DNA of 64,000 bases from a virus, in IMG/VR virus record IMGVR_UViG_3300021389_000005, positions 1-64,000 of that record. One strand, given 5' to 3'. How positions within the stretch are numbered: position 1 is the first letter of the stretch; every line of letters starts with the position of its first letter. A model generated the notes under the pieces. That model searched no databases. It had not been told where the DNA came from and saw nothing but the letters and a program-made list of their open reading frames with translations. Shown here in pieces: positions 11,288-21,131 of the stretch. The position numbers were made by a program, and so were the translations under genes.

Positions 11288-12661
11288 ATGGCAGGTCAAC
11301 AAGATTTATATAAAAATACAACTGAGTTTAGAAAGGGAAGTCCACTTAGAACAATTAATGAGGATCCAACTTACTTGAGCTGGTTAATCATGTTTGATAA
11401 GACATCTGACGGATCTCCTCTTTTTAATGGAGCTGCTGAGAAATATTTATTAGAAACAGTAGGTGGAGACTATGGTAAAGGATTGGCAGCTACTCTAAAT
11501 GCATTTAAAACTTTATTATTTAAAATTAATACAGATATGCCTTGGTTTTGGCAAACACTTTCTGGTTTAGAACAGTCACAGATATATGAAAACCTATCAG
11601 AGCCTTATTGGGGTGCAAAAGATCCTAAACTAGAAATAGAATGTCTAGAAGAAACTGTTGATTTAACAGTTATATCTTTAATGGACTTGTACAAAAGATC
11701 TGTATATGATTTTAACAGATGGATTGAAATAATTCCATTTAATTTAAGGCATTTTAGAATGCAAATATACATTTCTGAAATTAGACAATTTCAACTAGAT
11801 ACACACGCTAAAGATTTAGATTTTACATACAAACCAGGAGGACCGGCACATAAAAATCAGACAGAACCTAAAACTTTACATCAACAATTAAATTTAACAG
11901 CAAAGCCATTTATTAAATTACAATTTGATTTTTGTGAGTTTGACATTGATGCTATATCTACTATGTATGCAGATATTACAAAAAACCCTGAACTAAGAAA
12001 ACCTAAAATTGCTATTAAGTGGCAATCGGTGAGGAATGCTGGTCAAAAATATCCAAACGATACAGAAGCTACCGAAGGATTAGGTGTTGTTGGAAAGCTT
12101 AACCCATATGATTTTGGCCCGTTTGATCCTTTACAATCGGTTAAAGACGCAGCTAACGATAAGCTTAAAGATATTAAAGAAGGTGTAATGGGTAAAATAG
12201 ATAATTTTAAAGGTGCATTTTCTCAAGAACCAAATGGAATAGCAAACGTTTATGGCCATAGTAGAACTGGACTTAGCGGTCCTTTAGCGAGTTTAGCTGA
12301 TCAAGCAATTGATAATTTAACAGCTAGTTTGTTACTAGGAAACGTACACGGTGCCAACACACTAAGTAATATACAAGATGCTATTACTTCTGGAAGTGTA
12401 AATGCTATTGCTAATTTAGCTGGACAATTATTTAGCGGCAAGAGCGACAGTGTACCAGGAGATTTATCACCAGGTAACATACACCCAACTGATAATTTTG
12501 CATTAGATTCATCACCAGACGGTAATATTACACCTAAGAAAGTATATGATGATATACCTGCCGACAGAGATGATCCAATTAACGATAATGTATATGGTGG
12601 TCCAAACACAGGTGTAGATTCATCACCAGACGGTAACTTAAACGATAACGTACATGAATGA
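11288..12661 (+). CDS. Putative tail/baseplate structural protein
   Basis: 457 aa within the baseplate block, AATATATA at 11276; C-terminal DSSPDGN repeats. Confidence 0.45.
   Translation: MAGQQDLYKNTTEFRKGSPLRTINEDPTYLSWLIMFDKTSDGSPLFNGAAEKYLLETVGGDYGKGLAATLNAFKTLLFKINTDMPWFWQTLSGLEQSQIYENLSEPYWGAKDPKLEIECLEETVDLTVISLMDLYKRSVYDFNRWIEIIPFNLRHFRMQIYISEIRQFQLDTHAKDLDFTYKPGGPAHKNQTEPKTLHQQLNLTAKPFIKLQFDFCEFDIDAISTMYADITKNPELRKPKIAIKWQSVRNAGQKYPNDTEATEGLGVVGKLNPYDFGPFDPLQSVKDAANDKLKDIKEGVMGKIDNFKGAFSQEPNGIANVYGHSRTGLSGPLASLADQAIDNLTASLLLGNVHGANTLSNIQDAITSGSVNAIANLAGQLFSGKSDSVPGDLSPGNIHPTDNFALDSSPDGNITPKKVYDDIPADRDDPINDNVYGGPNTGVDSSPDGNLNDNVHE
12504..12636 (+). repeat. 22-bp intragenic direct repeat TAGATTCATCACCAGACGGTAA
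   Basis: Copies at 12504-12525 and 12615-12636 encoding DSSPDGN. Confidence 0.85.
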
Positions 12662-13370
12662 TAAAGAACTTTTTAAAGACAACATTAGAGAAACTCACTG
12701 GCTTGGTGAGGTAGTTGTTAATGAAGATCCATTACTGCAAGGAAGGTGTAGAGTAAAGGTTTATGGTAAATTCGATACACTAACAGAAGACGCTATTCCA
12801 TGGGCAACTCCTATGAATAGAGACCAAGTAGGTGCACATTCAGTACCTAGAGTTGGAGATATAGTTGCAGTTAGATTTGATAATGGAAATATTTACCACC
12901 CAGAATATTGGTTTCAGATTGATCAAAACCCAGATTTAAAGACAGATATATTGGAATCATCTGATGCACCACATGATGTGATTAGTTTAGTATATGATGC
13001 AGAAAGAAATGTTAGAATATATCATTCCCCAGAAGATGGCTTAGTTATTACTAGAGGTAGTGGTGCTAAAGAAAGACCAATGATACAAATAGACGAAGAA
13101 GGATTCATTAAGATAAGCACAGATGCGAAGATGTTCTTAGACTGTGGTGATATATTCGTTTCAAATGAAGGTGAACCTGGAGCAGATGAGACAGAGCCAG
13201 CAGTAAGAGGTCAATCTCTACAAGATTGGTTACAAACTTTATTAGACGATTATAATGCACATATTCACCCAACAGGTGTTGGACCATCAGGTCCACCGAT
13301 GCCACCTACACCAGCAACTGTAGGTAAATTATCTAGTACTCATATTAACTATCAACAAAAAGGTAAATAA
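12654..13370 (+). CDS. gp5: Baseplate central spike (gp5/GpV OB-fold), without a lysozyme domain
   Basis: GEVVVNEDPLLQGRCRVKVYG...IPWA...VPRVGDIVAVRF OB-fold; C-terminal HIH metal-binding tip motif. Confidence 0.85.
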   Translation: MNDKELFKDNIRETHWLGEVVVNEDPLLQGRCRVKVYGKFDTLTEDAIPWATPMNRDQVGAHSVPRVGDIVAVRFDNGNIYHPEYWFQIDQNPDLKTDILESSDAPHDVISLVYDAERNVRIYHSPEDGLVITRGSGAKERPMIQIDEEGFIKISTDAKMFLDCGDIFVSNEGEPGADETEPAVRGQSLQDWLQTLLDDYNAHIHPTGVGPSGPPMPPTPATVGKLSSTHINYQQKGK

Positions 13371-13372
13371 TT

Positions 13373-15358
13373 ATGCCCGTAATTTGGCCATCATTTATCA
13401 GCGCAGCGGCTAATACAATTTCAAGCCACGAGTTTACAAAACCAGGTGGACTTGCAACAGCGTCGTACGAAACACCTAAAGTTGGAGCAGATCAAGTTAA
13501 TATTTTTCCACCATCACCTGAGCTCATAGAAGCTATAAAACCAGGAAATCCGCTAAATGCTAATTTAGCTACTAATCCTACACAGTTTACTAATATTGGA
13601 AATACTAATCCATTAAGCGGTAGATTTGATTTTGGTAAAGCCATTGCTCAAGACTATTTAGATGCAGTTAAAGGTATGGCTATGACACCAGTTGGAGCAA
13701 CACATACAAATAATGGTATTGCTGAACAACTATTATTAAATGGATATGGTTTAGTATTTGAGAGGTTATTAAAAGAAGGTGATATACCATTAATGGACCA
13801 AAAGGATGAGGACGGAAATATAACTGAAGTTGGTAAAGAGTCTCATCCTGACTACGCTGATCTTTGTCCCGAACCTATAGTACCACCAGACCCTATAGAA
13901 GAAGAGAAGAAAATTGAAAAAAAATTTAGTAAGTTTATTGAAGAATCCAAAGAAGATCCTTTTTATGATCTATATAAGTTTAGATTTTTTCAATTTCATT
14001 GTTTAGACGGAAAAGAATCTGCAAGTGATATTATTGATTTATTTGCAAATAGACTTTTGCAGCAATTCGATTCGCTTGATACTTCTGGAAGTTGGAGTAG
14101 CACTGTAAATAGAAGATTTAACTATATTAGATGGGCTACAAGTTTAGGTAAAGCAAATTATGAAAATTTCAATGCAAACGATTATTATTATGCTAGCTCA
14201 GATTGGAAAAGTAGATTCCCATACGTCAATGTCTCTATTAAAACTAGGAACGGAATTAAAAATGCAGGTTATAATGATTGGCAACAAATAGTAGATGGCG
14301 TTTCTAGGGTGTTTAAAGAAGCAATAGATGTTGCATTTCCAACGTTTGAGGTTATGGTTCCTGCAGAAGGAAATCGAGAATCATATCTTTATGTAGAACA
14401 AGATATGTATAAAAGAGTAGCTAAAGGTAGAATGGCGCCAACTCCAATGCCATCACCAGATTTAAGTGAAGATGTGCTTTGCCCGTTAGATCAATACAAG
14501 TGTCAAGTTTCTTATAACAGGGAGCGTGGGACATATCAAAATGCAGAGGGTAATACAGTTACAATTACAAGCAAAAGACCTAAGATATTGACTGATCACG
14601 TAGTAACTTTCTTTTCATATGATAATGGTGCATTAGAAGATGTTAATAACTTTAATGAATTTAATTCAGGTAATCTAGACGAAGGTGAAGCTGCTAACGT
14701 TGTATTAAACGACGATAATAAGATTTTATGGTGGGACAAAGATGATCAATATGTAAAAACCCAATATGAAATTTTAGAGTATGAAACAAAATGGACAAAG
14801 ATACCTGCTGCGGTAAGTAATATTAGTCCTGCTGCTACTGATGCTAAAGCAGTCTTAACTCAATTTTTATCTATTGACCCAAAACAAGGTGGAACTGTTT
14901 TTAAATTTCAATATGATCAAGCTAAGAAATCAAAAGAAGCCGCAGAAGAATGCGATGAACTAGAAGAAGGCGCAGAAATTGCATTTACTTGGCCAGGTGG
15001 AGATCCATACGAAGAAATGGCAGAAATTACGATTGCGTATTGGTATGCTTGTATTGTAAAACCATTTGCACCATCAACATCTATGCCTCCCGCGTTAATA
15101 CCACCGCCACTTACAGGTATTTATGTGCCTATTTATTATGGTGGAAAAACTAGATTAGCTAATAATTTAAGAAGAGCTTGGAACTCTGGCAAATCATTTA
15201 TGATTCCGCCAACAAAACCACCAGCGACTGTAGTCGCTACTGCATTAGCTGCTACTTATGCTATGCATTTATTAGAATTTAAATTACTTTATTTAGGTGG
15301 AATTCCGACACCTGCTGGACCTGTCCCTATGGTAGGTTTTGTACCTGTCGTGTTCTAA
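13373..15358 (+). CDS. Hypothetical virion protein adjacent to the spike
   Basis: 661 aa, Pro-rich hydrophobic termini, starts 2 nt after the spike gene. Confidence 0.5.
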   Translation: MPVIWPSFISAAANTISSHEFTKPGGLATASYETPKVGADQVNIFPPSPELIEAIKPGNPLNANLATNPTQFTNIGNTNPLSGRFDFGKAIAQDYLDAVKGMAMTPVGATHTNNGIAEQLLLNGYGLVFERLLKEGDIPLMDQKDEDGNITEVGKESHPDYADLCPEPIVPPDPIEEEKKIEKKFSKFIEESKEDPFYDLYKFRFFQFHCLDGKESASDIIDLFANRLLQQFDSLDTSGSWSSTVNRRFNYIRWATSLGKANYENFNANDYYYASSDWKSRFPYVNVSIKTRNGIKNAGYNDWQQIVDGVSRVFKEAIDVAFPTFEVMVPAEGNRESYLYVEQDMYKRVAKGRMAPTPMPSPDLSEDVLCPLDQYKCQVSYNRERGTYQNAEGNTVTITSKRPKILTDHVVTFFSYDNGALEDVNNFNEFNSGNLDEGEAANVVLNDDNKILWWDKDDQYVKTQYEILEYETKWTKIPAAVSNISPAATDAKAVLTQFLSIDPKQGGTVFKFQYDQAKKSKEAAEECDELEEGAEIAFTWPGGDPYEEMAEITIAYWYACIVKPFAPSTSMPPALIPPPLTGIYVPIYYGGKTRLANNLRRAWNSGKSFMIPPTKPPATVVATALAATYAMHLLEFKLLYLGGIPTPAGPVPMVGFVPVVF

Positions 15359-15368
15359 AAAATAGAAG

Positions 15369-15376
15369 GATATATA
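15369..15376 (+). promoter_or_regulatory. Putative late promoter GATATATA
   Basis: Upstream of the S1-like gene. Confidence 0.55.
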
Positions 15377-15403
15377 ATATGTTACACTCTTAATATAAAA
15401 AAA

Positions 15404-16702
15404 ATGACAAACAAATCAAAAAGAGCTAGAATCGGCGAAACTACGGTCACTCTAGCAGAAAAGACAGTAGAATCAAATACTGAAACAGTAGTAGAATCAA
15501 CAACTAAGAAAGAGGAAATAGAAGATACCAATGATCAATGGTATAATGCAGAAGGAGAATTCATGTGGGACGAATATGAAGCTACTTGTGTAACTAGACT
15601 TAGAAAACCAAATCCACATATTAAAACCAGAAACGGTGACAAGGTTTATTCCAGAGAATTATATGCTCAAGAGTTATATGATAAGATGGAAGTATACGAA
15701 TCTAATGTCAACATGCTACCTGAATTAATTGAAGGTGGAATATATGACGGTACAGTATTTGCTGTGACTTCAGATTTTATCACGGTCGACGTGGGTTATA
15801 GAGAATCTGTTTATATTAAGTTTGAAAAAGAGCCTGAACATGTTCAAGCCCTTAAACCTGGAGAAGCTACTTCAGTGTTGATCACAACGTATAGGCCAGG
15901 ATCACATGTTATTGGAAGCATCAGCGGTGGTGTTAAGCAAAAAACATTTATGGATCTAAGAGACGGTGTTGAAAAAGGTGACACTGCTTGGGTAGGTACA
16001 GTTGTAAATATGATAGAAAACGGAGGTTACATAGTTAACGTTCAGGGAATAGATTGCTTTATGCCTGGATCATTAGCTGGAATTAACAAGCTACATGACT
16101 TTAGCTCTATTATAGGGACTGAAATGTATGTTGTTCCTGTTAGTTTCTCACCAGACAGAGGCACATTAGTTGTTTCACATAGAAAATATTTACAAGCATT
16201 AATTCCTACTGCAATAGAAGAATTAAAAGAATCTATTGATAATGAACAAACAGGACATGTAACAGGTACTGCAAAATATGGAGTATTTGTTGAGTTCAAT
16301 AAATGTTTAACGGGTATGATTCATAACAATGACTTAGACGAAGATACATTAGTTAAGTTTAAGGCCAGAGAAATTAAACCCGGTGATGAAATTTCATTTA
16401 AAGTCAAAGACATTGTAAGCGAAAAGAAAATTACACTAACGCAAAAGGTAAACGTACAAATTAATCCATGGTCGGACATTACAACTAGAATTCAAATTCC
16501 TTCTAATGTTACTGCTATTGTTAAAACAAAAAAGGATTATGGTTTATTCATTACTATAGAGGATGGTGTAACTGGATTGCTACATATTAGTGAAATAGGA
16601 GAAGAAACAATGTCAGTCTTTAAACCCGGTGATGAAATTACTGTGCAGATTACAAGAATAGACGTTGACTCAATGAAAGTATTTCTTAAACTGCCACAAT
16701 AA
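15404..16702 (+). CDS. rpsA: Ribosomal protein S1-like protein (about 4 S1 domains)
   Basis: VDVGYRES, GGYIVNVQGIDCFMPGS, VVSHRKYL, YGVFVEF...GMIH, NPW, DYGLFITIEDGVTGLLHISEI: bS1 domain patterns. Confidence 0.8.
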   Translation: MTNKSKRARIGETTVTLAEKTVESNTETVVESTTKKEEIEDTNDQWYNAEGEFMWDEYEATCVTRLRKPNPHIKTRNGDKVYSRELYAQELYDKMEVYESNVNMLPELIEGGIYDGTVFAVTSDFITVDVGYRESVYIKFEKEPEHVQALKPGEATSVLITTYRPGSHVIGSISGGVKQKTFMDLRDGVEKGDTAWVGTVVNMIENGGYIVNVQGIDCFMPGSLAGINKLHDFSSIIGTEMYVVPVSFSPDRGTLVVSHRKYLQALIPTAIEELKESIDNEQTGHVTGTAKYGVFVEFNKCLTGMIHNNDLDEDTLVKFKAREIKPGDEISFKVKDIVSEKKITLTQKVNVQINPWSDITTRIQIPSNVTAIVKTKKDYGLFITIEDGVTGLLHISEIGEETMSVFKPGDEITVQITRIDVDSMKVFLKLPQ

Positions 16703-16717
16703 GTTCAACGTGAGTGT

Positions 16718-16725
16718 GATATATA
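16718..16725 (+). promoter_or_regulatory. Putative late promoter GATATATA
   Basis: Upstream of the amidoligase-like gene. Confidence 0.55.
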
Positions 16726-16750
16726 ATCAAACGGTAATATCATACTCTAG

Positions 16751-18061
16751 ATGCAAAAACTTAATATAAAATCTACAAAGGAACAGATCTTGAACTCTGC
16801 ACAAATAGGTGTGGAGTTCGAGTTCTATTCTAACTTGAGCCTTCAAGAGACCCAGAAATCTATTTCTGATCTATTGAATAGAAAAATTCAGTTAGAAGAC
16901 AAAGCGCATTCCGATTTTGTACCTGATGACAAAGTCTTTAAAATGGAACCTGATATGTCAGGTGGTAAAGGACTTATAGAATTGGTAACTGGTCCAATTC
17001 CTTACAGAAATGCTAGGGTAATTATCATTAAAATGCTGGATTGGATTGATAAAAACGGATATACTAACGATCGTGCTAGTATTCACTTAAACATGTCATT
17101 TCAAACTGACTACTTAGAAGATCCTATAATGGTTTCTAAAATGAACGTTCTTAAATTCATTTTAGATTTTGATGAGCAACAAGTTTACAATTTCTTCCCT
17201 TCTAGAGAGGGTTCAACATACGCTAAAAGTATAAAATGGGTTATGCCAGCAAGAGAAGCATATTACTTCGATGAAGATCATATTTCACCGATGAATTTTA
17301 TTTTTGCTAATTCTAAATATTACGGTATAAACTTTGAAAAAGCCCAAAAGAATTACTTAGAGTTTAGATACATCGGTGGAGAAGACTACCATAAACGCAA
17401 AGAAGAGATACTTTATTTGTGTGAAAGATTTATTATGCAAATGTGGAAATCATGTAATAATCCTAGGTTTTCATCACAAAATAGAATAGAACTTAAAAGA
17501 ATTCTTAATAAGAATAAACCACTTATAGAATCTTTAAAAGATCATACTAAATTAAATAAATACTTTCCTAAAATACATGTGTTAGTTGATTTACAAGATA
17601 ATGATCAAGTTATTAAAGTTCAATGGGCTAGAATAAAGAATAAAGTAATTGATTTAATAGCCAACGGTACAATGGAAAAGGGTATTATTAACTATGATTC
17701 AGATTACGGTACTATTCAAGTAAAAGACGGTGTATTCTCTGCTATATTTCTTTTAGACGGATATGAATTCATAGATTGCGAATTAAGAGGTAATGTAGAA
17801 AATGCATCTATTTATGGAGGTGAAGTAATTGGATCTATGCTTAAAAGATGTAATCTTTATAGCAGTGCTGAAATAAAAGACAGCAAAATAGAATCATGTT
17901 ATGTTAACGGTAGTGTAACTGCTAATAACTGTTTTATATTTGGACGCGATGGTGTGTTTAAAGGTAGAACAATCGGTGGTATATACAGAGAAGGCTTTTT
18001 AGGAAAAGATGCCAGAATAGGAGATACTACTGAAGTTGTAGTTAGTAAAAAAATAAATTAA
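16751..18061 (+). CDS. Amidoligase-like (COOH-NH2 ligase fold) protein with a C-terminal beta-helix-like region
   Basis: IGVEFEF, EPDMS, IELVTGP, ASIHLN, KYYGINF, LEFRYIGG motifs. Confidence 0.7.
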   Translation: MQKLNIKSTKEQILNSAQIGVEFEFYSNLSLQETQKSISDLLNRKIQLEDKAHSDFVPDDKVFKMEPDMSGGKGLIELVTGPIPYRNARVIIIKMLDWIDKNGYTNDRASIHLNMSFQTDYLEDPIMVSKMNVLKFILDFDEQQVYNFFPSREGSTYAKSIKWVMPAREAYYFDEDHISPMNFIFANSKYYGINFEKAQKNYLEFRYIGGEDYHKRKEEILYLCERFIMQMWKSCNNPRFSSQNRIELKRILNKNKPLIESLKDHTKLNKYFPKIHVLVDLQDNDQVIKVQWARIKNKVIDLIANGTMEKGIINYDSDYGTIQVKDGVFSAIFLLDGYEFIDCELRGNVENASIYGGEVIGSMLKRCNLYSSAEIKDSKIESCYVNGSVTANNCFIFGRDGVFKGRTIGGIYREGFLGKDARIGDTTEVVVSKKIN

Positions 18062-18940: not shown

Positions 18941-19297
18941 ATGGATTTTTATATAAAAACTTTAGGAGACCCAAACTGGAATAGAACACAAGTTCAAACC
19001 AATGGAGAAATAGAACAGCTCATTCAACAAATAGAGACTATTTTATTTACCGGAAAGGCTGATGTTTTAGGATCACCTGGATTTGGATGTGATTTAGAAA
19101 ACTACATATATTCTCTAGGATATAACGAAGGTCAACTAAAAGACGTGTTAGATACACAAATTAAATATTATTGTCCTTTAGCACAAAAATACAGCGTTTC
19201 AACTAAGATTAACTTTCTTAAGGGTAGCGTTAGAGATATTGCATATATTGATATTACAGTAGACAGCAAATATCTCGTACAATTAAACATTAGATAA
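18941..19297 (+). CDS. gp25: Baseplate wedge protein gp25-like
   Basis: IETILFTGKADVLGSPGFGCDL; directly upstream of the gp6-like gene. Confidence 0.8.
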   Translation: MDFYIKTLGDPNWNRTQVQTNGEIEQLIQQIETILFTGKADVLGSPGFGCDLENYIYSLGYNEGQLKDVLDTQIKYYCPLAQKYSVSTKINFLKGSVRDIAYIDITVDSKYLVQLNIR

Positions 19298-19298
19298 A

Positions 19299-21131
19299 AT
19301 GGCAGAGTTAAAATTTATAAGTACATTAAGAGCAACCGCAAGGCAGGTCAGAGACGATGCTAGAGTTTATGTTTCTAGGGTTTATGGACGAGCAGGTACA
19401 TTATTTACTGATGCATCGCCGTTTGCTCAAATTATATCTGTAATAACTGAGATTCAAGAATTAATATTATTTTATCTTGAAGATGCATTGGTTGAACAGA
19501 ACATATATACAGCTCAACATCCAGAATCTATTTATGGTATGAGTAGACTCACAGGTCATGACTCTACTAGAGGTTTTGCAGCTACAGGTGAAATTGAATT
19601 TAGATGGAAACCAGGTGTTGATTTTGATAAAATTTCAGGAGCTGGAATTACAATAGACAATAGAGCTGAATTAAAATTCGACCTTAACGGGTTAACATAT
19701 ACGTTGTTGACCAACAAAGACAGATTTAGATTAGAAAAAAGTAACAATAAAATTATTAGTACCGCAATTATTCAGGGTAAATTTGAAACACAAACTTTCA
19801 CAGGAGATGGCGAACCTTTACAATCTTTTAACGCACAGACAAAGGGATTAACTGATCATAGCAAAATAAGTGTTAGCGTTAACGGTGAATTATGGACAAA
19901 GCAGGAATCTCTTTATGATTTACAAAGAGATGAAAAAGGTTACCTTATTAAAACAGGTATTTCAGGTGGATTAGATGTTTATTTTGGAAACACTGCGTTT
20001 GGTATGGCGCCTCCACAAGGTTCTAAAATAGAACTAGAGTACGTCACACATGATGGTAAGAAAGGAAACTTAGATGATTCAAATGATTTAACATTAAAGT
20101 GGCAAGCAACAGGTGAAGATTCTTTAGGTACATCACATGATTTAAATAATTTCTTAGACATAACTGTTACATCTTCTCCTAAAATGGGAACAGATAAAGA
20201 ATCTACTCAATTTACAAAGATCATGACTCCTCTTGCTAGTAAGTCATTCGTGTTGGCAACTCCAGATAATTATGAATACTTCTTATCAAGATATGGTATA
20301 TTTTCTTATTTGGATGCTTATAACACAACAGATGATCAATATCTAGATGATGATAACGTGATTTATATTTTTGCAATTCCAGATGTTAGAAAGAAGTTAG
20401 CTAAAAACCAAGATTATTTTTCTATTCCACAAGAAGAAATGTTTTTCGATGATAATGAATATGAAAAAATGTCTAAGGTATTACAAGATAGTGGACAGCA
20501 AATGGTAACTACCGAAGTTGTTTTTGTTAAACCTAAGATTAGAAAATATAGCATGGATGTTAACATTAGATTTTTTGAAGGTTTTACAAAAGATGAATTA
20601 ACTAGTGCAATTAGATCTAAAATAGATGAATACTTATTGAATGTAACTAGAAGAGATAAGTTGCCAAAATCAGATATAATTTACATATTAGAAGAGATTG
20701 AAGGCATCGATGCTGTTAATGTTAGGTTTATTTCTGAAACAGAAGAAACAGCAAGAAGATTAGGTTACTTTGAATCTAAAACAATTTCTGTTGTACCACA
20801 AGATCCTGTAACTTTAGAAAATGTTGGAAACGGAAAACAAAAATATGTGTTCTTTAAAAGAATAGAAGAAGTTTCAACAGTAACAGTAGATGAAACAACA
20901 ATTATACCTGAAACCGTAGTTGGTTTAGATAGATGGGGTGATATTATTATGGAAAAAGAAGAGGTTGCAGTATTTAGAGGTGGATGGCAAGATAGAGACG
21001 GAGATGAAATTGTAGACGATGTTTTAATTAACGCAGAAGCTGCATTAAGTATTAATTTCGAAGGTGATCCAGTTCCTAGAACAATATACACTAGACTACA
21101 GGCTGGTGATAGAAAAGCATTAAAGAAATAA
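19299..21131 (+). CDS. gp6: Baseplate wedge protein gp6-like (baseplate J family)
   Basis: EQNIYTAQ...SIYGMSRLTGH, VYFGN.AFG..PP.GS.I..EY, GTDKES motifs. Confidence 0.8.
   Translation: MAELKFISTLRATARQVRDDARVYVSRVYGRAGTLFTDASPFAQIISVITEIQELILFYLEDALVEQNIYTAQHPESIYGMSRLTGHDSTRGFAATGEIEFRWKPGVDFDKISGAGITIDNRAELKFDLNGLTYTLLTNKDRFRLEKSNNKIISTAIIQGKFETQTFTGDGEPLQSFNAQTKGLTDHSKISVSVNGELWTKQESLYDLQRDEKGYLIKTGISGGLDVYFGNTAFGMAPPQGSKIELEYVTHDGKKGNLDDSNDLTLKWQATGEDSLGTSHDLNNFLDITVTSSPKMGTDKESTQFTKIMTPLASKSFVLATPDNYEYFLSRYGIFSYLDAYNTTDDQYLDDDNVIYIFAIPDVRKKLAKNQDYFSIPQEEMFFDDNEYEKMSKVLQDSGQQMVTTEVVFVKPKIRKYSMDVNIRFFEGFTKDELTSAIRSKIDEYLLNVTRRDKLPKSDIIYILEEIEGIDAVNVRFISETEETARRLGYFESKTISVVPQDPVTLENVGNGKQKYVFFKRIEEVSTVTVDETTIIPETVVGLDRWGDIIMEKEEVAVFRGGWQDRDGDEIVDDVLINAEAALSINFEGDPVPRTIYTRLQAGDRKALKK

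What the first reader, a model, noticed from the sequence alone, without database searches (positions are those of the whole stretch)
15369..16702. Phage-encoded ribosomal protein S1 homolog inside the baseplate cluster under a late promoter
Seen: about four S1 domains with a ~100-aa N-terminal extension, its own GATATATA, and A-rich leaders lacking SD across the window. Known: bS1 recruits AU-rich leaders, Bacteroidota mostly do not use SD pairing, and S1 homologs have been reported in huge phages. Inference: it replaces or competes with host bS1 to favour late phage mRNAs; the late timing and truncated architecture stand out.
Basis: partly seen in the sequence, partly recalled or inferred. 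Interest (0 to 1): 0.7.

Follow-up and report, generated by a model that had tools for sequence, protein, structure and literature searches.

The report
Phage copy of ribosomal protein S1
A large marine phage carries its own shortened version of ribosomal protein S1, made late in infection and apparently built to sit on the host ribosome where the host's S1 sits; genes of this kind have been reported in huge phages before.

Summary
ORF 15404-16702 (+) encodes 432 aa that align collinearly with domains 1-4 of bacterial bS1 (E. coli bS1 E 3e-36; fold match to ribosome-bound bS1). It lies between baseplate genes, behind a GATATATA motif that marks late genes in this contig (24 sites on +, 0 on -, 19 intergenic). 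Only 4 of 118 genes have an SD core. New here: (1) the "N-terminal extension" is mostly not an extension. Residues ~50-101 match the two-helix anchor of Flavobacteriaceae bS1, which in F. johnsoniae contacts uS8 and uS2. Only residues 1-45 are variable and disordered. (2) All 38 short or phage homologues sampled, including Lak and huge phages, form one clade apart from 52 cellular bS1. (3) Gene order and promoter are fixed across relatives (80 of 80 loci; 43 of 43 upstream regions). Most likely it is a late-expressed bS1 substitute or competitor on Bacteroidota-type ribosomes; ribosome binding is inferred, not shown. Phage rpS1 and its link to SD-less genomes were published in 2020, so this is a new member of a known kind. 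The scan had already noted the GATATATA motif on this window.

The parts
15369..15376 (+). GATATATA late-promoter-like motif of the S1 gene
   Evidence: site; 24 sites on +, 0 on -, 19 of 24 intergenic in the contig; the same motif precedes portal, prohead protease, major head and tail sheath genes; present upstream of the S1 gene in 43 of 43 distinct upstream regions of related loci.
15377..15403 (+). conserved A-rich leader without SD
   Evidence: in 38 distinct upstream regions from loci with under 85% protein identity, the mean major-base frequency is 0.84 over the 30 nt after the motif. Motif-to-ATG distance is 28 nt in 20, 27 in 6 and 29 in 3. Transcription start not mapped.
15404..16702 (+). 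CDS, 432 aa, phage bS1 homologue (D1-D4)
15404..15538 (+). residues 1-45: variable, disordered tail
   Evidence: pLDDT under 50 for residues 1-43. Identity 6% and coverage 26% in the 16 distant family members.
15539..15601 (+). residues 46-66: first anchor helix with F53-x-W55-x-x-Y58
   Evidence: Short helices at 55-61 and 63-66. F53 in 25 of 27 and W55 in 20 of 27. The same motif is in 24 of 24 Flavobacteriaceae bS1. hhalign aligns these columns. The F. johnsoniae counterpart contacts uS8.
15662..15706 (+). residues 87-101: second anchor helix, counterpart of the bS1 N-terminal helix that binds uS2
   Evidence: Helix 88-101. Y87 in 20 of 27, A88 in 21 of 27, Q89 in 19 of 27, Y92 in 25 of 27. 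It aligns with the pre-D1 helix of cellular bS1. E. coli contacts Phe5 and Phe9 are from the paper read.
15722..15919 (+). domain 1 (residues 107-172), with R133 at the E. coli Lys43 position
   Evidence: R or K at residue 133 in 25 of 27.
15989..16177 (+). domain 2 (residues 196-258)
   Evidence: 50% identity in distant members, with F219, P221, G222 and S223 invariant in 27 of 27. Y209 and F219 lie at the E. coli Phe120 and Phe130 positions.
16244..16441 (+). domain 3 (residues 281-346), canonical S1 RNA-binding domain
   Evidence: Pfam S1 match at 16238-16438. F295 in 27 of 27, Y or F at 292 in 23 of 27, H307 in 18 of 27.
16502..16690 (+). domain 4 (residues 367-429), canonical S1 RNA-binding domain
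   Evidence: Pfam S1 match at 16508-16687. Y or F at 379 in 26 of 27, F382 in 26 of 27, H394 in 20 of 27.
12654..13370 (+). upstream neighbour: baseplate hub OB-domain protein
   Evidence: Pfam Phage_base_V at 1.4e-07. PHROG baseplate families.
16751..18061 (+). downstream neighbour: amidoligase-like protein with its own GATATATA at 16718
   Evidence: Pfam Amidoligase_2 at 3.3e-06, above its cut-off. Follows S1 in 80 of 80 related loci.
19299..21131 (+). baseplate wedge (Baseplate_J-like) gene

Best explanation
The gene encodes a phage-lineage paralogue of ribosomal protein bS1. It keeps the 30S-docking module: two N-terminal anchor helices plus the degenerate domains D1 and D2. It also keeps two canonical RNA-binding S1 domains, D3 and D4, and lacks D5 and D6. 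It is transcribed from a phage late promoter together with the virion genes. The protein then occupies the bS1 site of host (probably Flavobacteriia) 30S subunits, next to uS2 and uS8, in place of or in competition with host bS1. From there it captures the short, A-rich, SD-less leaders of phage late mRNAs, when structural proteins must be made in bulk. Shown: homology, domain map, conserved anchor residues, promoter motif class, SD-less leaders, conserved synteny. Inferred: ribosome binding, competition with host bS1, mRNA preference, late timing.
For: Collinear D1-D4 match to bS1: NCBIfam rpsA models, E. coli bS1 at E 3.3e-36, Foldseek top hits all ribosome-bound bS1 (9gut_B at E 6e-28). As in bS1, only D3 and D4 pass Pfam S1; D1 and D2 are degenerate. 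Contact positions reported for E. coli bS1 (paper read): Lys43 corresponds to R133 (R or K in 25 of 27); Phe120 and Phe130 correspond to Y209 (Y or F in 27 of 27) and F219 (27 of 27); the pre-D1 helix is aromatic (Y92 in 25 of 27). The F-x-W-x-x-[YFH] motif upstream of D1 is found in 24 of 24 Flavobacteriaceae bS1 and 86 of 118 close phage homologues. It is found in 0 of 35 long cellular representatives, 0 of 11 of the proteobacterial sample, and 22 of 20,800 shuffles. Profile-profile alignment places the motifs on each other. [quoted passage not shown] Late class: the motif is shared with portal, protease, major head and sheath genes and is kept upstream of S1 in 43 of 43 distinct relatives. 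SD core in 4 of 118 genes. The contig also carries 7 tRNAs and a CCA-adding enzyme. Contigs from four RNA libraries cover parts of the gene; this is weak, because DNA carry-over is not excluded.
Against: There is no direct evidence of ribosome binding. Scores lie far below the rpsA equivalog cut-offs (148 against 577 bits). The family is a separate long-branched clade, not nested in host bS1, and identity to a Flavobacteriaceae bS1 is only 25%. The E. coli Phe79 contact has no counterpart (a gap). The spacing of aromatics in the pre-D1 helix differs from E. coli Phe5/Phe9. An HMM of residues 46-106 alone does not beat shuffled sequences (8.5 against 7.4 bits), so the anchor-motif match rests on position, recurrence and the profile-profile alignment. 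D1-D2 of host S1 also bind non-ribosomal partners such as Qbeta replicase (PDB 4q7j and 4r71 among the hits). The host is inferred, not known. No gp55 homologue was found with T4 gp55 as query in this 43%-complete contig. The motif also precedes a ribonucleotide reductase subunit and a CCA-adding enzyme, so 'late' is a class label, not a measured time.
Confidence: 0.55

Rival explanations
1. It is an off-ribosome RNA-binding factor. D3 and D4 bind AU-rich phage RNA as a chaperone, a stabiliser, or a cofactor of a phage nuclease or polymerase. D1, D2 and the N-terminal helices hold a phage protein instead of the ribosome, as host S1 does for Qbeta replicase and T4 RegB.
For: D1-D2 of S1 are a general protein-binding module: Qbeta holoenzyme structures are among the matches (4q7j, 4r71), and the S1 roles with Qbeta, T4 RegB and lambda beta are listed in the paper read. 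D2 and D3 are the best conserved parts (50% and 57% in distant members), which fits any conserved partner. The family is far from cellular bS1.
Against: Retention of the Flavobacteriaceae-type uS8-contact motif and of the basic residue at the Lys43 position is hard to explain if the ribosome is not the partner. No candidate partner was identified.
Confidence: 0.25
2. It is a virion-associated protein, packaged or carried on the baseplate or tail and delivered with the DNA, so that the first phage mRNAs are translated on re-programmed ribosomes.
For: It holds a fixed position inside the baseplate module under the virion-gene promoter in 80 of 80 close loci and 21 of 45 distant loci. It has a disordered 45-aa N-terminal tail.
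Against: Its N-terminus does not resemble the MK..F..F..E-type N-termini shared by seven other proteins of the window; the reading of those as capsid-targeting signals comes from earlier unchecked notes and recall. The same promoter motif precedes non-structural genes. No PHROG virion family matches. No virion proteome of a relative is available; the search found none.
Confidence: 0.1
3. It is a decoy or shield. It is a bS1 look-alike that absorbs a host defence or a phage-made modification aimed at bS1, or that keeps translation going after host bS1 is inactivated.
For: T4-type phages modify host S1: the listing includes a paper on T4 ADP-ribosyltransferase attaching RNA to host proteins, of which I saw only the listing and abstract start. 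The phage protein is divergent enough (25% identity to a Flavobacteriaceae bS1) to escape something specific to host bS1.
Against: No S1-modifying enzyme was looked for or found here. This reading overlaps with the main explanation and differs only in the selective reason.
Confidence: 0.07
4. It is a purely structural baseplate protein that reuses OB folds and does not bind RNA.
For: Location among baseplate genes.
Against: The canonical S1 RNA-binding aromatic and histidine positions are conserved in D3 and D4. There is full-length collinearity with bS1.
Confidence: 0.03

Closest known systems
Bacterial ribosomal protein bS1 (rpsA), especially the Flavobacteriaceae form
   Same: Same order of domains D1-D4, with degenerate D1 and D2 and canonical D3 and D4. 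Two N-terminal anchor helices, including the F-x-W-x-x-Y motif. A basic residue at the Lys43 position. Conserved aromatics in D2.
   Different: No D5 or D6. An 18-residue longer loop between the two anchor helices. An extra disordered 45-aa tail. Only about 25-30% identity. Below the rpsA cut-offs. A separate clade. Encoded by a virus, in a baseplate operon.
Possible rpS1 proteins of huge phages (Al-Shayeb et al. 2020, PMC7162821; passages read)
   Same: Same family. The 462-kb phage LR756500.1 has a 35%-identical homologue in the same gene order. The homologues from LR745206.1, LR756501.1 and Lak-B2 fall in the same clade. The same association with SD-less genomes holds.
   Different: That paper reports up to six S1 domains and says true rpS1 is hard to confirm. 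Here the D1-D4 map, the anchor motifs, the late-promoter class and the baseplate synteny are worked out. Its supplementary tables could not be seen.
Phage-encoded bS21 of Bacteroidetes phages (Chen et al. 2022, PMC9723584; abstract read)
   Same: A ribosomal protein of the mRNA exit and platform region, encoded inside the structural-gene region of large phages of Bacteroidetes. It is co-expressed with structural genes and is proposed to substitute into host ribosomes late in infection.
   Different: A different protein. No bS21 was found in this contig. bS21 there resembles host bS21 closely, whereas this S1 is an old phage lineage.
T4 late promoters (TATAAATA read by gp55; recalled)
   Same: A lone A/T-rich octamer without a -35 element, about 20-50 nt before late genes and only on the coding strand.
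   Different: The sequence differs (GATATATA followed by A and then A or T). No gp55 homologue was detected with T4 gp55 as query. The start site is not mapped.

Membership tests
bS1 / rpsA | Collinear array of S1 domains in the bS1 order | tested here: met
   Residues 107-430 align with E. coli bS1 14-343, i.e. D1-D4, and with rpsA model positions 14-343 of 516. hhalign against the Flavobacteriaceae bS1 profile gives probability 100 and E 1.8e-46. D5 and D6 are absent.
bS1 / rpsA | Score above the curated rpsA equivalog cut-off | tested here: not met
   Best scores are 158 bits against cut-off 524 (NF004952) and 148 against 577 (TIGR00717).
bS1 / rpsA | N-terminal helix and D1 loop that dock on uS2 (E. 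coli Phe5, Phe9, Lys43) | tested here: inconclusive
   An aromatic helix at 88-101 is present and conserved, and R133 lies at the Lys43 position. The aromatic spacing differs and Phe79 has no counterpart.
bS1 / rpsA | Bacteroidia-type first helix that contacts uS8 (F. johnsoniae residues 11-20) | tested here: met
   F53-x-W55-x-x-Y58 aligns with the Flavobacteriaceae motif. An HMM of the N-terminal piece alone is not significant.
bS1 / rpsA | Canonical RNA-binding S1 domains in D3 onward | tested here: met
   Pfam S1 passes for D3 and D4. Aromatic and His positions are conserved.
bS1 / rpsA | Orthology: branches within cellular bS1 | tested here: not met
   All 38 short or phage sequences lie on one side of a branch (SH-aLRT 100) from 52 cellular bS1. 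A tree joining them with Bacteroidota bS1 is not rejected (p-AU 0.546).
bS1 / rpsA | Physical presence on the 30S subunit | not testable with these tools
Phage rpS1-like proteins of huge phages | Encoded on a phage genome | tested here: met
   IMG/VR virus record of 126,361 bp with portal, protease, major head and sheath genes.
Phage rpS1-like proteins of huge phages | Homology to the published huge-phage proteins | tested here: met
   tblastn matches to LR756500.1 (35%), LR745206.1 (33%), LR756504.1 and the Lak phages (29%). Same clade. Shared synteny with LR756500.1.
Phage rpS1-like proteins of huge phages | Genome without recognisable SD sequences | tested here: met
   4 of 118 genes.
T4-type late promoter | Motif precedes virion genes, on the coding strand only, in intergenic DNA | tested here: met
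T4-type late promoter | gp55-type late sigma factor in the genome | tested here: inconclusive
   T4 gp55 as query found nothing in the contig, which is 43% complete. An earlier unchecked note claims a gp55 gene.

The most novel reading that the evidence does not exclude
An ancient, phage-only lineage of four-domain S1 proteins, shared by marine jumbo phages, Lak phages and other huge phages, mimics the lineage-specific N-terminal anchor of Bacteroidota bS1. It displaces host bS1 from uS2 and uS8 and turns host ribosomes into phage-dedicated ribosomes for late, SD-less mRNAs. Its own unusually conserved leader would serve as an autoregulatory operator. Because its gene is hard-wired into the baseplate operon, ribosome conversion would be coupled to virion assembly.
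Probability: 0.3. Interest if true: 0.7.

Novelty: new member of a known kind. Interest (0 to 1): 0.48.

Why it matters
Bacteroidota start translation without Shine-Dalgarno pairing and depend on bS1 and upstream adenines. How their phages win the competition for ribosomes is open. This family is abundant in marine metagenomes: 2371 near-length homologues and 525 IMG/VR loci. It offers a directly testable case, because the F. johnsoniae in vitro initiation and cryo-EM system already exists, and the residues to mutate are named here. It also answers the caveat of the 2020 paper, and the reason the 2019 survey gave for setting S1 domains aside, that true phage rpS1 cannot be told from other S1-domain proteins. 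For this family, the domain order and the anchor motifs say it is bS1-derived.

Tried and rejected
The complex prediction of a Flavobacteriaceae-type uS2 (alignment A2, residues 1-232) with residues 76-195 of the phage protein gave no verdict: score 0.46 against controls at 0.61 and 0.65. It counts neither for nor against binding.

PHROGs has no family for the protein.

The sigma-70-type promoter scan and the terminator scan around the gene were at chance level.

T4 gp55 as query found nothing in the contig. A PHROG scan of five ORFs at about 93.7-97.8 kb found a clamp loader and an exonuclease but no late sigma factor.

No bS21 was found.

The genome-contig scan returned only 7 loci. They are phage-type copies in MAGs, because the search patterns were specific to the phage clade, and they gave no named cellular bS1.

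Cluster look-up gave almost no names.

The context of one distant homologue on a 508-kb contig (L180) was uninformative.

P0171 has no relatives in IMG/VR.

An HMM of residues 46-106 alone did not separate real from shuffled bS1.

A phmmer search of residues 46-159 against PDB gave nothing significant.

The 118-aa ORF at 18941-19297 is only weakly like gp25-type proteins (E 0.5-0.8), so I do not name it.

The parts of the gene without cover in the RNA-library contigs say nothing.

I looked for papers on an S1 homologue in a baseplate cluster or a virion proteome and found none in that library.
Full report
WHAT IS THERE. The window is the first 64 kb of a 126,361-bp IMG/VR virus record that CheckV rates 43% complete. 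The ORF at 15404-16702 on the + strand encodes 432 aa. Pfam finds the S1 domain above its cut-off in two stretches. PHROGs has no family for the protein. NCBIfam's best 11 hits are all 30S protein S1 models. They align residues about 103-431 collinearly with model positions 14-343 of 516 in TIGR00717, but at 148-158 bits, far under the equivalog cut-offs of 524-577. Single-domain S1 proteins (GSP13/CvfD, PNPase, RNase R) score much lower. Against PDB sequences the best matches are E. coli bS1 (E 3.3e-36), with residues 107-430 on bS1 14-343, that is domains D1-D4. An AlphaFold2 model built from a 27-sequence alignment has mean pLDDT 76.9. It shows residues 1-43 disordered, short helices at 55-66, a helix at 88-101, and four OB barrels joined by long helices. 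Foldseek's best hits are ribosome-bound bS1 chains (9gut_B at E 6e-28 over 365 columns).

SURROUNDINGS AND PROMOTER. Upstream lies a Phage_base_V OB-domain hub protein (12654-13370). Downstream lie an Amidoligase_2-like protein (16751-18061), two unassigned ORFs and a Baseplate_J-like wedge protein (19299-21131). In the window alone, GATATATA is no more frequent than chance (11 against 7.2 expected). In the whole contig, however, all 24 copies are on the coding strand, and 19 lie in the 6.5% of the DNA that is intergenic. They sit mostly 20-50 nt before start codons. Of ten downstream genes scanned, PHROGs names portal, prohead protease, major head protein and tail sheath, and weakly a head-closure protein. 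It also names a ribonucleotide reductase small subunit and a tRNA nucleotidyltransferase, and three have no family. This is a real promoter-like class tied mainly to virion genes. Calling it 'late' is an inference by analogy with T4 (recalled). T4 gp55 as query found no homologue in this partial contig. Leaders are SD-less: 4 of 118 genes have GGAG, GAGG or AGGA at -20..-4, against 8.2% of random 17-mers. They are also A-rich and G-poor.

RELATIVES. The near-length protein search found 2371 homologues at E of 0.001 or better. The best 120 are all 412-447 aa and 63-100% identical, and many come from marine sources. The exhaustive representative search found 6127 homologues, 217 of them at E of 1e-30 or better. 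These are a mixture of proteins of 365-450 aa at 30-63% identity and cellular-length proteins (500-800 aa) at 26-32%. In phage records, 38 hold a match. Among them are the huge phages LR756500.1 (35%), LR745206.1, LR756504.1, LR756501-3, and 15 Lak phages of Prevotella (29%).

IMG/VR holds at least 525 relatives, of which the best 80 were kept. In those 80 loci the S1 gene is followed by the amidoligase-like gene in 80, by the next ORF in 79, and by the 118-aa ORF and Baseplate_J in 78 each. The hub gene precedes it in 66. I did not check every miss, but several are loci cut by contig ends. LR756500.1 keeps the same order at 30-46% neighbour identity. Among 45 loci found with a distant member (P0128), on contigs of up to 508 kb, the same order is recognisable in 21. 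In the other 24, no neighbour is recognisable by tblastn, and one of them that I examined was uninformative. Upstream of the S1 gene, GATATATA or AATATATA is present in 43 of 43 distinct upstream regions. The roughly 28 nt between motif and ATG are far better conserved than the protein would predict.

IS IT bS1-DERIVED, AND FROM WHERE. I built a maximum-likelihood tree of the D1-D4 region (90 rows, 333 columns). It held 38 short or phage sequences, 15 Bacteroidota, 12 from the phylum of a proteobacterial MAG, 3 from the phylum of an Erysipelotrichaceae MAG, 2 others, and 20 unnamed long representatives. One locus, L136, was dropped for lack of a hit. The tree puts all 38 short or phage sequences on one side of a branch with SH-aLRT 100. 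Only the sequences from named phage records and IMG/VR are known to be viral; the other short ones are assumed to be. The phage protein is 25% identical to the bS1 of a Flavobacteriaceae MAG that also holds a 70%-identical phage-type copy on another contig. So this is no recent host capture. A tree that joins the phage clade with Bacteroidota bS1 is not rejected (p-AU 0.546), so the origin stays open.

THE N-TERMINUS. Within the family, residues 1-45 are variable and mostly absent from distant members. Residues 46-106 are shared. The paper read (D'Urso et al. 2023; passages) lists the E. coli contacts: Phe5 and Phe9 of the N-terminal helix stack on uS2, Lys43 enters the uS2 zinc pocket, Phe79 stacks on uS2 His18, and Lys117, Phe120 and Phe130 of OB2 lie near the mRNA. 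By the alignment, Lys43 corresponds to R133 (R or K in 25 of 27). Phe120 corresponds to Y209 (Y or F in 27 of 27), Phe130 to F219 (27 of 27) and Lys117 to N206. Phe79 falls in a gap. The helix at 88-101 aligns with the pre-D1 helix of cellular bS1 and is aromatic.

Further upstream, the phage motif F53-x-W55-x-x-Y58 recurs in 24 of 24 Flavobacteriaceae bS1, at a fixed distance from D1. The pattern F-[DNEM]-W-x-x-[YFH] upstream of D1 is found in:
- 86 of 118 close phage homologues;
- 7 of 30 short representatives;
- 1 of 14 other Bacteroidota;
- 0 of 11 of the proteobacterial sample;
- 0 of 35 long representatives;
- 22 of 20,800 composition-preserving shuffles.

The pattern was defined after seeing the data, which inflates its apparent significance. 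An HMM of residues 46-106 alone does not beat shuffles. The profile-profile alignment, however, puts the motifs on each other with high column confidence and shows an 18-residue longer loop in the phage protein. The Lak-B2 homologue has the motif too. Arpin et al. 2026 (PMC13000457; passages read) report three things. Residues 1-42 of F. johnsoniae bS1 form a helix-loop-helix on the 30S subunit. The aromatic helix at residues 11-20 contacts uS8, and the N-terminus associates with uS2 and uS8. [quoted passage not shown] One sampled Bacteroidota bS1 (L120, 591 aa) begins with exactly that reported motif. The phage 'extension' is thus largely the host-type ribosome anchor.

MECHANISM. Taken together, the protein keeps every recognisable part that bS1 uses to sit on a Bacteroidia-type 30S subunit, plus two RNA-binding domains. 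It is produced with the virion genes in a genome whose mRNAs depend on S1-type, SD-independent initiation. I therefore favour a ribosome-bound substitute or competitor of host bS1 (0.55). The rivals are an off-ribosome RNA-binding cofactor (0.25), a virion-delivered protein (0.10), a decoy (0.07) and a purely structural role (0.03). Host assignment to Flavobacteriia rests on three things: the SD-less leaders, the anchor motif, and two MAG bins labelled Flavobacteriaceae or Flavobacteriales that hold phage-type copies. It is an inference. Contigs from four marine RNA libraries, from four studies, cover parts of the gene at 90-100% identity. DNA in those libraries is not excluded, and contigs cannot show starts or levels.

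WHAT IS KNOWN. Roux et al. 2013 listed rpsA among functions in uncontaminated viromes and asked for genomic context (passages). Mizuno et al. 2019 set S1 domains aside as ambiguous (passages). Al-Shayeb et al. 2020 reported possible rpS1 in huge phages and their association with missing SD sequences, and said that true rpS1 is hard to confirm (passages). Chen et al. 2022 proposed late substitution of phage bS21 into Bacteroidetes ribosomes (abstract). A 2026 paper reports bS1 in a jumbo cyanophage (passages). The kind is therefore known, and a published huge phage carries an orthologue in the same gene order. What is added here is the D1-D4 assignment, the host-type anchor, the single phage clade, the late-promoter class with a conserved leader, and the fixed place in the baseplate module. 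I rate it a new member of a known kind, of moderate interest, and directly testable.

Noticed in passing
window 15377-15403: The leader of the S1 gene is conserved almost base for base in 38 distinct relatives whose proteins are only 61-74% identical. It begins with a five-codon mini-frame (ATG to TAA) directly after the promoter motif. It may be an autoregulatory operator, as in E. coli rpsA (recalled), or part of an extended promoter.
   Followed up: partly
window 16703-18061: The amidoligase-like gene follows S1 in 80 of 80 close loci and keeps its own GATATATA in 40 of 40 distinct upstream regions. A 12-nt inverted repeat brackets that promoter. By eye, the C-terminal half of the protein looks like a beta-helix repeat. 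Its function is unknown, and a link with S1 (for example protein modification) is speculation.
   Followed up: partly
window 44687, 45259, 50885, 52761, 55927, 57467, 57959 (gene starts): Seven proteins share N-termini of the type MK..(L/F)..F..F..E. Earlier notes read these as T4-like capsid-targeting signals. The S1 homologue lacks this N-terminus.
   Followed up: partly
contig 123.7-125.5 kb (L090 13688-15542): Seven tRNA genes (Leu, Arg, Asp, Glu, Gln, Ile, Lys) lie next to a tRNA nucleotidyltransferase gene that carries the GATATATA motif.
   Followed up: partly
contig 68889 (L087 about 4889): GATATATA also lies 125 nt before a ribonucleotide reductase small-subunit gene, so the motif class is not limited to virion genes.
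   Followed up: no
L049-L054, L058, L063, L066-L070, L077-L081: In many relatives the distance from the hub gene to S1 is 3.3-5.3 kb instead of 2.7 kb. The region holding the 661-aa ORF (13373-15358) is therefore variable in length and is the least conserved part of the module (37-64% identity).
   Followed up: no
window 13373-15358: A 661-aa protein between the hub gene and S1 has no family match. It ends in a proline-rich, hydrophobic stretch.
   Followed up: no
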